A DNA stretch of 64,000 bases from Pseudomonadota bacterium (GTDB taxonomy: Bacteria; Pseudomonadota; Gammaproteobacteria; UBA1113), in assembly GCA_021782495.1 (NCBI GenBank), contig JAJXUV010000010.1, forward strand, positions 11,601 through 75,600. The letters run 5' to 3'. Shown here in pieces: positions 61,286-61,955 of the stretch (positions within the stretch are counted from its first letter, which is position 1; every line of letters starts with the position of its first letter). Position numbers and translations under genes: made by a program. The notes below the pieces were generated by a model. The model did not search any database. It worked only from the letters and a program-made list of their open reading frames with translations, and had not been told where the DNA came from.

Positions 61286-61955
61286 ATGAGACCAAATTAC
61301 GCTCAAAATGTTGCTGTTAATGGACTGGGTGCACTATTACGTCGAATCGAAGCACTCAAGGAATGTGTAGTAGGCCTGAAAAATTTAGACGAAGAGATGG
61401 ATGCACATTTTAATTTTTCTTTTAAAGAAGAAAAGCTGCCTATCATCGATCTCGCTTTAGGAATGAAACGCATTTGGACTAAGCATGAAGAGAAGGCCAT
61501 AAAAATCTTAAGTATTTTCTTGGAAACTCTGAAAGAAGATATACCCAGATTACAGGAGGCTCAAAAAAGTAATGATATTAGGGCCTGTTGACATTTGTGT
61601 TATCGGCTGCAAAATGAGTAGAACCGGCCACAATCACAGCAAATTTTCGTCAAATATTCTCGATATTATCCTCAAATTTGCTGTGATTGTGGCCGATTCC
61701 CTCATTTTTCGCTTCGACAACCCAAATGTCAACAGGCCCCCTAAAGCAGTGAATGAAGTCTTACATGACATACGCGATGGTTTGTGTTTTAGTGGTACAA
61801 CTCGCTTAGAAAAAACTTTTGAGATTTTACGTGTGAAAGTGGAATTAAATGATGATTTAGAGAAAATAAGCGCATTATTTTCCTTAGCTTATGAGGAAGT
61901 GCGTTATTTTGAAGAAGCGTTTGAAAAAATGAAGTATAGACCTTCAGAAAAATAA
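61286..61955 (+). pseudogene. hypothetical gene split by a MITE insertion (ORFs 61286..61591 and 61572..61955)
   Basis: Removing 61581-61743 (161-bp element plus one TA) joins ...QKSNDI to KAVNEVLHDIRDG... in frame, giving one ORF of about 169 codons. Confidence 0.5.
61581..61741. mobile_element. family-3 MITE-like element, full copy
   Basis: Arms of about 66 nt, gggcctgttgacatttgtgttatcggctgcaaaatgagtagaaccggccacaatcacagcaaattt and its imperfect inverse, surround a 27-nt centre. Flanked by TA/TA. No coding capacity. Confidence 0.7.

What the first reader, a model, noticed from the sequence alone, without database searches (positions are those of the whole stretch)
61286..61955. MITE-like hairpin element splits a hypothetical gene; excision restores one reading frame
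The interval 61581-61741 is a 161-bp element made of two imperfectly inverted arms of about 66 nt (termini gggcctgttgacattt / aaatgtcaacaggccc). It is flanked by TA on both sides.

ORF 61286..61591 stops 4 codons into the element (…NDIRAC*). ORF 61572..61955 starts inside it. Deleting the element plus one TA (163 nt) joins ...EAQKSNDI to KAVNEVLHDIRDGLCFSG... in frame, giving about 169 codons.

Caveat: the exact element boundary was chosen by eye, and a frame match has a one-in-three prior.
Basis: seen in the sequence. Interest (0 to 1): 0.65.

Follow-up and report, generated by a model that had tools for sequence, protein, structure and literature searches.

The report
Small transposon splits a signalling gene
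A 159-base hairpin-shaped mobile element (a MITE derived from an IS5-family insertion sequence) has landed in the middle of a small phosphotransfer (Hpt) domain gene of an uncultured mine-drainage bacterium and cut it in two, which is a clear but ordinary case of gene disruption by a transposon.

Summary
Positions 61581-61739 form a 159-bp near-perfect hairpin (65 pairs, -87.8 kcal/mol, z = -14.9) with 17-nt perfect termini GGGCCTGTTGACATTTG. TA lies on the left. On the right lies CC and then TA.

The interpretation also holds. An uninterrupted, syntenic orthologue (P0002/L122) aligns to both halves, and the window carries exactly 163 extra nucleotides. Nine further homologues are gap-free across the junction. 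The rejoined 168-aa protein passes Pfam Hpt across the junction, and its family profile matches solved Hpt domains.

The element is a MITE. In the source metagenomes its word depth is about 30-70 times that of its flanks. The window also holds two solo termini. Its termini and TA flanks are those of 845-860-bp elements that encode IS5-family transposases in Acinetobacter lwoffii and Roseovarius.

Two corrections:
- Other copies end at 61739, directly followed by TA. The CC (61740-61741) is therefore irregular, and only a TA-to-TA deletion restores the frame.
- ORF2 starts 9 nt upstream of the element, not inside it.

No empty-site allele and no RNA were found. The gene is most likely a pseudogene. 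This is a new member of a known kind, of low to moderate interest.

The parts
61286..61580 (+). 5' part of the interrupted Hpt-like gene: codons 1-98 plus the first base of codon 99. It carries an N-terminal extension of about 45 aa and the first part of the Hpt domain.
   Evidence: ORF list. 57% aa identity to the intact orthologue P0002 over this half. Syntenic upstream DNA in L122.
61579..61580 (.). Left TA, one copy of the duplicated target dinucleotide. The ancestral site reads T-TA-A.
   Evidence: Sequence. TA precedes 73 of 130 termini of this kind in other genomes.
61581..61739 (.). Canonical MITE body, 159 bp and 44% G+C. It is a near-perfect palindrome and carries no transposase gene.
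   Evidence: Fold z = -14.9. Word depth about 560-1400 against about 15-22 in the flanks in run X1. Other copies diverge exactly after 61739.
61581..61605 (+). Left terminal inverted repeat GGGCCTGTTGACATTTGTGTTATCG. It contains the premature TGA stop of ORF1 (61589-61591) and a perfect TTGACA hexamer.
   Evidence: The first 16 nt are identical to the left end of the IS5-family element in Acinetobacter lwoffii, L093.
61715..61739 (-). Right terminal inverted repeat, 92% complementary to the left one.
61740..61741 (.). Two extra C between the canonical right end and the right TA. They are either a variant end of the donor copy or a later expansion of the C run.
   Evidence: 26 contigs in X1, 26 in X2, 13 in X3 and 17 in X6 leave the alignment after 61739 and continue with TA. 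Only one other copy reaches 61741. The orthologue has no room for these bases.
61742..61743 (.). Right TA, the second copy of the target duplication.
   Evidence: Sequence. Deleting 61581-61743 restores colinearity with L122.
61744..61955 (+). 3' part of the interrupted gene, including the stop codon. It holds the helix with the conserved His (LHDIRDG) and the rest of the Hpt bundle.
   Evidence: 59% aa identity to P0002. Alignment A2. Pfam Hpt. PDB Hpt domains 3myf and 3iqt.
61572..61955 (+). Mechanical ORF2 (127 aa). Its ATG is out of frame in the 5' part. It reads through the only open frame of the element into the 3' part. Probably not a real product.
   Evidence: The allele in run X8 carries +T after 61693, which breaks this phase.
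61588..61615 (+). Promoter-like site inside the left terminus (TTGACA, 16 nt, CAAAAT), reading inward and on towards the 3' gene part. A mirror site lies at 61732-61704 on the minus strand.
   Evidence: Consensus scan only. No RNA data.
51501..51543 (+). Solo right-hand end of the same family (about 43 nt, 89% identical over 38 nt), between two genes. It supplies the stop codon of the coaE-like gene.
29241..29255 (-). Solo terminus TAGGGCCTGTTGAC (15 nt exact).

Best explanation
A non-autonomous derivative (MITE) of an IS5-family insertion sequence (NCBIfam transpos_IS5_3 type; IS427-like by my reading of its size and two-frame layout) inserted at a T-TA-A site inside codon 98/99 of a small gene for an Hpt-domain protein. 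The site lies seven codons upstream of the conserved histidine.

The proposed sequence of events is as follows.
- A transposase supplied in trans recognised the GGGCCTGTTGACA termini and duplicated the TA (inferred).
- The inserted DNA is now 163 nt: 159 nt of canonical element, an irregular CC, and one TA (shown).
- The upstream reading frame runs into a TGA that is part of the element's terminus after four codons. This gives a 101-aa fragment (shown).
- The 3' half is left without its own start (shown).
- The gene is therefore most likely inactivated, and the insertion is fixed in this population (inferred).
- The element stays as a stable hairpin-forming repeat, one of tens of copies in the genome (shown by depth).

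What is shown: the insertion, its size, the family relationship of the termini, the repeat status and the identity of the host gene. What is inferred: the transposition mechanism, the loss of function and the origin of the CC.
For: - Hairpin and termini are far beyond chance.
- The intact syntenic orthologue lacks exactly 163 nt.
- 38 homologues were found; the nine that were aligned are all continuous over the site.
- The Pfam Hpt match over residues 74-123 spans the junction. The family profile hits solved Hpt domains 3myf (2e-13) and 3iqt. One homologue is named an HPt domain protein by IMG.
- Element word depth is about 560-1400 against about 20 in the flanks. In run X1, 26 different contigs of 1-11 kb at genome-like depth end at the same base and go on with TA.
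- Two solo ends lie in the window.
- The same termini with TA flanks bound an 860-bp element in Acinetobacter lwoffii (L093 3427-4286) and an 845-bp element in Roseovarius (L033 3675-4519). Their ORFs pass NCBIfam transpos_IS5_3 at 176 and 126/143 bits (cut-off 110).
- TA precedes 73 of 130 such termini, and nine 146-330-bp paired versions occur in other phyla.
- The same insertion is seen in independent assemblies from at least three studies.
- The only two differences in 1002 nt between two strains are both non-synonymous and both lie in the 3' half. This fits relaxed constraint, but weakly.
Against: - The right junction is irregular (CC before the TA), so the textbook layout of element plus a 2-bp duplication is not met exactly.
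- No autonomous partner could be looked for in the same genome.
- No empty-site allele was seen in eight runs, so mobility of this copy is not shown.
- Both gene halves are still open and equally conserved (57% and 59%). Loss of function is therefore inferred, not shown.
- Copy number rests on assembler word depth in metagenomes, where related genomes may contribute.
Confidence: 0.85

Rival explanations
1. The split gene still works. The 5' fragment and a chimeric ORF2 product (57 element-encoded residues fused to the 3' half, starting at the ATG at 61572 behind AGGAGG at 61554-61559) are both made, or assemble into a two-piece Hpt. The extra CC was retained because it puts the 3' half in phase with the only open frame through the element.
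For: - Only one of the three forward frames through the element is open, and with the CC it is in phase with the 3' half.
- AGGAGG lies 12 nt upstream of the ATG.
- Both halves are intact and equally conserved relative to the orthologue.
- Gene callers predicted this ORF in two assemblies (P0003).
- Intragenic MITEs that form fusions are known (PMC10969869).
Against: - The phase match has a one-in-three prior.
- The allele in run X8 has an extra T after 61693 that breaks the phase, although that contig has low depth.
- An mRNA hairpin of -88 kcal/mol begins 9 nt downstream of the ATG at 61572, at 61581.
- The only two strain differences are non-synonymous in this half.
- No RNA was detected.
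- The split lies inside a four-helix bundle, seven codons before the active His.
Confidence: 0.08
2. The two ORFs are two genuine separate genes, and the hairpin is an intergenic structured element (a REP-like terminator or regulator) that was always there.
For: Two ORFs are called. Hairpin repeats often sit between genes. The same family has a solo end between two genes at 51501-51543.
Against: - A syntenic orthologue and all nine aligned homologues are continuous across the site.
- The Hpt domain match spans it.
- ORF1's stop and most of ORF2's first 57 codons are element sequence.
- No terminator-like T run was found.
Confidence: 0.02
3. The insertion is a reversible switch. Replication slippage between the two TA dinucleotides, helped by the hairpin, excises the 163 nt precisely and turns the gene back on in part of the population.
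For: TA-to-TA deletion restores the ancestral frame exactly. Long palindromes flanked by short direct repeats are known substrates for precise excision (general knowledge of Tn5/Tn10 precise excision).
Against: No contig joining 61580 to 61744 was found in any of eight metagenome runs, including two at about 15-20-fold depth. Contigs drop rare variants, so a rare empty site is not excluded. A 2-bp repeat is a poor slippage substrate.
Confidence: 0.04
4. The insertion is a metagenome assembly artefact: a repeat wrongly threaded into a single-copy gene.
For: The element is a high-copy repeat, and contigs break at it.
Against: - Left and right junctions are each covered by contigs at genome-like depth in X1, X2 and X3.
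- The left junction is also seen in X4 and the right junction in X8.
- An independent ENA contig (L126) spans the whole element with both flanks.
Confidence: 0.01

Closest known systems
IS5-family insertion sequences of the transpos_IS5_3 type (IS427-like: about 0.85 kb, transposase in two overlapping frames, TA-flanked), such as the elements at L093 3427-4286 (Acinetobacter lwoffii) and L033 3675-4519 (Roseovarius)
   Same: The terminal sequence is identical (GGGCCTGTTGACATTT, 16 of 16 at the left end of L093). Both have TA on each side and a T-TA-A / C-TA-G type target.
   Different: The window element is 159 bp and has no transposase gene. Its interior is a palindrome unrelated to the IS interior. 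It has an extra CC at one end. The IS427 subgroup label comes from my knowledge of ISfinder groupings and was not tested.
Bacterial MITEs in general (Correia/NEMIS of Neisseria, RUP of pneumococcus, and the MITE-sized TA-flanked pairs found here in L019, L042, L055, L062, L082 and L107)
   Same: Small size, terminal inverted repeats, TA duplication, many copies, the ability to fold into a long hairpin, and promoter-like hexamers in the ends.
   Different: Different sequence family and a different parent IS. Correia and RUP are not IS5-derived as far as I know (from memory). No evidence here of effects on neighbouring gene expression.
QMITE1 and QMITE2 of Coxiella burnetii (PMC5896051)
   Same: About 50 copies per genome, overlap with annotated ORFs, sigma-70-like promoters inside the element, and a similar size to QMITE2 (150-190 bp).
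   Different: QMITE1 is 300-400 bp with variable 2-3-nt repeats. QMITE2 has 7-11-nt direct repeats and a GTAG REP that IS1111 targets. The element here has fixed TA flanks and IS5-type ends. The sequences were not compared.
Rickettsia palindromic elements (RPEs)
   Same: A palindromic repeat of about 150 bp found inside protein-coding genes (PMC10969869).
   Different: RPEs are typically inserted in frame and translated as part of the host protein. Here the insertion is 163 nt, out of frame, and stops the protein after four codons.

Membership tests
Prokaryotic MITE | Terminal inverted repeats | tested here: met
   25-nt termini at 92% complementarity, with the outer 17 nt perfect.
Prokaryotic MITE | Short target-site duplication flanking the element | tested here: inconclusive
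   TA lies on both sides, but the right TA is separated from the canonical end by CC. Other copies have TA directly at the end.
Prokaryotic MITE | Small size and no transposase gene | tested here: met
   159 bp. The only open frame is a read-through frame with no family match. An Rfam E-value scan gave only matches far below each family's gathering score: generic hairpin (miRNA precursor) families and Listeria rli51.
Prokaryotic MITE | Many copies in the genome | tested here: met
   Word depth is about 30-70 times that of the flanks in four runs. In X1, 26 distinct contigs at genome-like depth end at the same base. Two solo ends lie in the 64-kb window. Caveat: this is metagenome data, not a closed genome.
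Prokaryotic MITE | An autonomous element with the same ends that can supply the transposase | tested here: inconclusive
   Found in other genomes (L093, L033). The rest of the source genome could not be searched.
Prokaryotic MITE | Evidence of mobility (presence/absence polymorphism) | tested here: not met
   No empty site was seen in eight runs. Only a 57%-identical orthologue lacks the element.
IS5 family derivative | Ends match those of elements that encode an IS5-family DDE transposase | tested here: met
   NF033580 at 176 bits (L093) and 126/143 bits (L033), cut-off 110. DUF4096 plus DDE_Tnp_1. Termini are identical over 13-16 nt.
IS5 family derivative | TA target preference | tested here: met
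   73 of 130 termini are preceded by TA, against about 8 expected. Loose-end consensus starts with TA in four runs.
Hpt domain (Pfam PF01627), for the interrupted gene | Score above the Pfam gathering threshold | tested here: met
   25.5 bits against 24.6, E = 1.6e-5, residues 74-123 of the rejoined protein. This is marginal. It is backed by a profile match to PDB Hpt domains 3myf (2e-13) and 3iqt (1e-7).
Hpt domain (Pfam PF01627), for the interrupted gene | Conserved phospho-accepting His in the H-K-x-x-G-x-x motif | tested here: inconclusive
   The His is present (LHDIRDG), but the following K and G are replaced. The nearest relatives P0002, P0004, P0011 and P0013 lack the His. This clade may be a degenerate Hpt.
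In-frame intragenic palindromic elements (RPE-like) | Insertion length is a multiple of three and is translated with the host protein | tested here: not met
   163 nt, with a stop four codons into the element.

The most novel reading that the evidence does not exclude
The extra CC is not noise. It re-phased the 3' half of the Hpt gene with the single open frame through the element. The cell would then make a chimeric protein whose first 57 residues are MITE-encoded, or a two-piece Hpt. That would be a MITE caught while being taken into coding sequence after first breaking the gene.
Probability: 0.07. Interest if true: 0.45.

Novelty: new member of a known kind. Interest (0 to 1): 0.25.

Why it matters
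- For annotating this genome, the two "hypothetical" ORFs at 61286-61591 and 61572-61955 should be merged into one interrupted Hpt-like (pseudo)gene, and the 159-bp repeat should be marked as a MITE.
- The case gives a clean, datable insertion: the element, the target and the intact orthologue are all in hand. It involves a so far unnamed IS5-derived MITE family in an uncultured bacterium.
- The terminus TA-GGGCCTGTTGACA is shared by IS5-type elements and their miniature derivatives across many phyla.
- Beyond that it adds no new principle. Gene disruption by MITEs is well documented.

Tried and rejected
- **Genome-contig scan.** The 15-nt terminus pattern was too short. It did reveal the IS5-type relatives.
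- **Metagenome-contig scan.** A 21-nt pattern gave three loci. They share only the terminal 21-24 nt and show no IS or MITE.
- **Protein search with the element-encoded peptide.** This was meant to fish out other insertions. It found no candidate, not even P0003, so it says nothing.
- **blastn of the element against plasmids.** No match.
- **Rfam.** Only sub-threshold matches of the generic hairpin kind (miRNA precursor families and Listeria rli51). No known RNA family.
- **Metatranscriptomes of the same study.** No contig on the locus, so expression is unknown.
- **Search for an empty-site allele in eight DNA runs.** None found. The joints listed link repeats, not the two gene halves.
- **Readings considered and rejected:**
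  - an IS630/mariner origin, because the elements found with these ends encode IS5-family transposases;
  - an intron, intein or translational bypass, because there is no ribozyme match and the frame-restoring deletion is defined by the TA repeats rather than by the RNA structure;
  - an assembly artefact.

Full report
**1. What is in the sequence**

Between the end of uvrA (58191-61013) and a YhgA/Rpn-like gene (61994-63037; Pfam Transposase_31) lie two ORFs on the + strand:
- 61286..61591, 101 aa, ending NDIRAC*
- 61572..61955, 127 aa

Between them the DNA reads ...gatatTA|GGGCCTGTTGACATTTG...CAAATGTCAACAGGCCC|CC|TAaagcag....

The repeat finder gives two nested inverted repeats:
- 61581-61605 with 61715-61739 (25 nt, 92%)
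- 61621-61657 with 61663-61699 (37 nt, 84%)

As a single strand the region folds into one 65-pair hairpin of -87.8 kcal/mol. Shuffles average -34.3, z = -14.9, and none of 200 shuffles folds as well.

ORF1's stop (TGA, 61589-61591) is part of the terminus GGGCCTGTTGA. ORF2's ATG (61572) lies 9 nt upstream of the element, not inside it as the finding says.

Removing 61581-61743 (163 nt) yields one ORF of 168 codons plus stop. Removing 159 or 161 nt does not.

**2. The two ORFs are halves of one gene**

*The orthologue.* A search with the rejoined protein found P0002 (162 aa, 57% identity over 93% of the query), P0001 (ORF1 itself) and P0003 (a variant of ORF2). P0002 lies on a 1090-nt contig, L122. 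Its upstream intergenic DNA is also homologous to the window. blastn aligns L122 177-706 to window 61039-61567 and L122 720-920 to window 61744-61938. The window therefore has exactly 163 nt that the orthologous locus lacks. A global alignment has no gap within 60 nt of the junction:
- window: ...AATGATATTAAAGCAGTG...
- L122...AATAACTTTGAAGCAGCA...

*The wider family.* An exhaustive phmmer search with P0002 found 38 relatives. Nine that were aligned are all continuous and gap-free over the site (alignment A2).

*The domain.*
- The rejoined protein passes Pfam Hpt (25.5 bits against a cut-off of 24.6) with a match over residues 74-123 that straddles the junction at 98/99.
- Larger relatives carry the same domain at the C-terminus of hybrid histidine kinases and receiver proteins.
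- The A2 profile matches the solved Hpt domains 3myf (2e-13) and 3iqt (BarA).
- One relative is named an HPt domain protein by IMG.

The insertion sits seven codons before the conserved His (LHDIRDG). In the nearest relatives that His is often replaced, so this clade may be a degenerate Hpt.

**3. The interrupting DNA is a MITE of IS5-family descent**

*It is repeated.* I laid Logan contigs of the source metagenomes on the locus. These are mine-drainage samples, and runs X1 and X2 hold 99% of the locus words.
- Word depth is about 560-1400 over 61592-61739, against 15-22 in the gene flanks. The ratios are similar in four runs.
- In X1, 26 different contigs of 1-11 kb, at the same roughly 20-fold depth as the host contig, leave the alignment exactly after 61739 and go on with TA followed by unrelated AT-rich sequence. 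The counts are 26 in X2, 13 in X3 and 17 in X6.
- Both arms of each copy match the same words. This therefore corresponds to roughly 20-40 copies per genome equivalent. That figure is my estimate from assembler depth in a metagenome.

*Solo ends.* The window itself holds two: 51501-51543 (89% over 38 nt) and 29241-29255.

*The termini belong to a widespread transposon type.* A scan of species-representative genomes with GGGCCTGTTGACAYT was too unspecific to find more copies of this MITE.
- 73 of the 130 termini it returned are preceded by TA, where about 8 would be expected.
- Nine loci carry inverted pairs 146-330 bp apart, six of them flanked TA...TA. These are MITE-sized relatives in Dehalococcoidia, Beta-, Gamma- and Alphaproteobacteria.
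- Two full-length elements were examined. L093 3427-4286 (Acinetobacter lwoffii, 860 bp including the TA flanks) has ends TAGGGCCTGTTGACATTT / AAATGTCAACAGACCCTA. L033 3675-4519 (Roseovarius, 845 bp, six copies in that MAG) has matching ends. Both encode IS5-family transposases: NCBIfam NF033580 at 176 bits and at 126 + 143 bits, with a cut-off of 110. In Roseovarius the transposase lies in two overlapping frames, DUF4096 plus DDE_Tnp_1.

The size and two-frame layout correspond to what ISfinder calls the IS427 group of IS5. That label is from my own knowledge and was not tested.

**4. The irregular right junction**

The family-defined end is 61739, so the canonical insertion would be 159 + 2 = 161 nt. 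This copy has CC (61740-61741) between the end and the TA. The orthologue leaves no room for these bases, so they came with, or after, the insertion. They are either a variant donor end or an expansion of the C run from 3 to 5. One other copy also extends to 61741.

Two consequences follow:
- Removing the canonical element plus one TA would leave ...GAT ATC CTA AAG CAG TGA and would not mend the gene.
- Only a TA-to-TA deletion restores it.

Even so, the conclusion survives, because the orthologue fixes the ancestral state independently of any frame argument.

**5. State of the gene**

The same insertion, with identical junctions, occurs in contigs from X1-X3 (one study), X4 (left junction, another study) and X8 (right junction, a third study). 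It also occurs in the ENA contigs L121 and L126. It is therefore real and fixed in this population. No contig joins 61580 to 61744.

L126 differs from the window at only two of 1002 positions, 61863 A>G (K>E) and 61893 G>C (E>Q). Both are non-synonymous and both lie in the 3' half. This is weakly suggestive of relaxed constraint.

Both halves are still open and equally similar to the orthologue (57% and 59%). The event need not be old.

Only one forward frame through the element is open. Thanks to the CC, it is in phase with the 3' half, which is why ORF2 exists. However, the X8 allele has G>C at 61692 and an extra T after 61693, which would break that phase (a low-depth contig). No RNA data could be found.

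I therefore rate pseudogene as most likely and a working split or chimeric protein as a minority possibility.

**6. Mechanism**

- Shown: the insertion, its size, the TA flanks, the premature stop supplied by the terminus, the repeat status, and the kinship of the ends with IS5-type elements.
- Inferred: mobilisation in trans by an IS5-family DDE transposase that binds the GGGCCTGTTGACA ends and duplicates TA; loss of Hpt function; persistence of the copy because excision is rare.

Each terminus contains a perfect TTGACA followed after 16-17 nt by a weak -10-like hexamer, reading inward. Transcripts from the left one would run through the element into the 3' half. This is a consensus match only.

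**7. Comparison and novelty**

MITEs that sit in or overlap genes, carry promoters and occur about 50 times per genome are described, for example, for Coxiella (QMITE1/2, PMC5896051). In-frame palindromic insertions are known from Rickettsia (PMC10969869).

The present element differs from these in sequence, in its fixed TA flanks, in its IS5-type ends and in being out of frame. It is a new member of a known kind. Interest is low to moderate. It is a tidy, well-supported annotation correction and not a new phenomenon.

Noticed in passing
window 61229-61258; also 33608-33778, 55820-55843, 56291-56358; L122 348-402: A second, even more abundant repeat family has termini (TTA)ACCGAGCCGCGACCGTSAGGGAGCGG. 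It has 6 matches in the window where 0 are expected. One is a perfect 68-bp hairpin at 56291-56358 and another a 170-bp version at 33608-33778. A solo end lies just upstream of the split gene and is also present at the orthologous place in L122. Word depth in X1 is about 3200 against about 22 in the flanks. No Rfam match.
   Followed up: partly
window 51533-51543 (minus strand): The stop codon of the coaE-like gene (51533..52168, minus strand, ending ...YSRAC*) lies inside a solo terminus of the same MITE family. The gene's last residues (RAC*) are the same element-derived ending as in ORF1 (...NDIRAC*).
   Followed up: partly
window 61628/61692, 61631/61689, 61637/61683: This copy differs from most other copies at three pairs of positions that face each other in the hairpin (C-G here; mostly A-T or T-A, or unpaired, elsewhere). 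The two arms have therefore changed in step. Either this is a subfamily, or the arms correct each other. The evidence is variant tables from contigs only.
   Followed up: no
window 61692-61693, in run X8: The allele of this same locus in a biofilm metagenome from another study carries G>C at 61692 and an extra T after 61693, which are the family-majority states. The insertion would then be 164 nt and out of phase with ORF2. The contig has low depth (2.2) and could be a mosaic of copies.
   Followed up: no
window 61863 and 61893, compared with L126: A near-identical strain differs at only two of 1002 positions. Both changes are non-synonymous (K>E, E>Q) and both lie in the 3' half of the split gene.
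   Followed up: yes
L019, L042, L055, L062, L082, L107 (and L008, L092, L115): MITE-sized (146-330 bp) inverted pairs of the same GGGCCTGTTGACA terminus occur in Dehalococcoidia, Beta-, Gamma- and Alphaproteobacteria. Most are flanked TA...TA. L022 and L089 carry a repeat beginning TA-GGGCCTGTTGACATTTGCAGCCGAAAAAGCAATTGTCAACAGACC, which would be a 45-bp mini-hairpin version (L022 3265, L089 7609); a third match at L022 7176 shares only its first 43 nt. Only the 45 nt after each terminus were read. This IS5-type end has apparently spawned miniature derivatives many times.
   Followed up: partly
window 61994-63037: The gene just downstream is a YhgA/Rpn-like putative nuclease or transposase (Pfam Transposase_31, 3e-35). 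A near-consensus promoter-like site (TTGACA, 17 nt, TATTAT) lies at 61994-62022, so the listed TTG start at 61994 is probably too far upstream.
   Followed up: no
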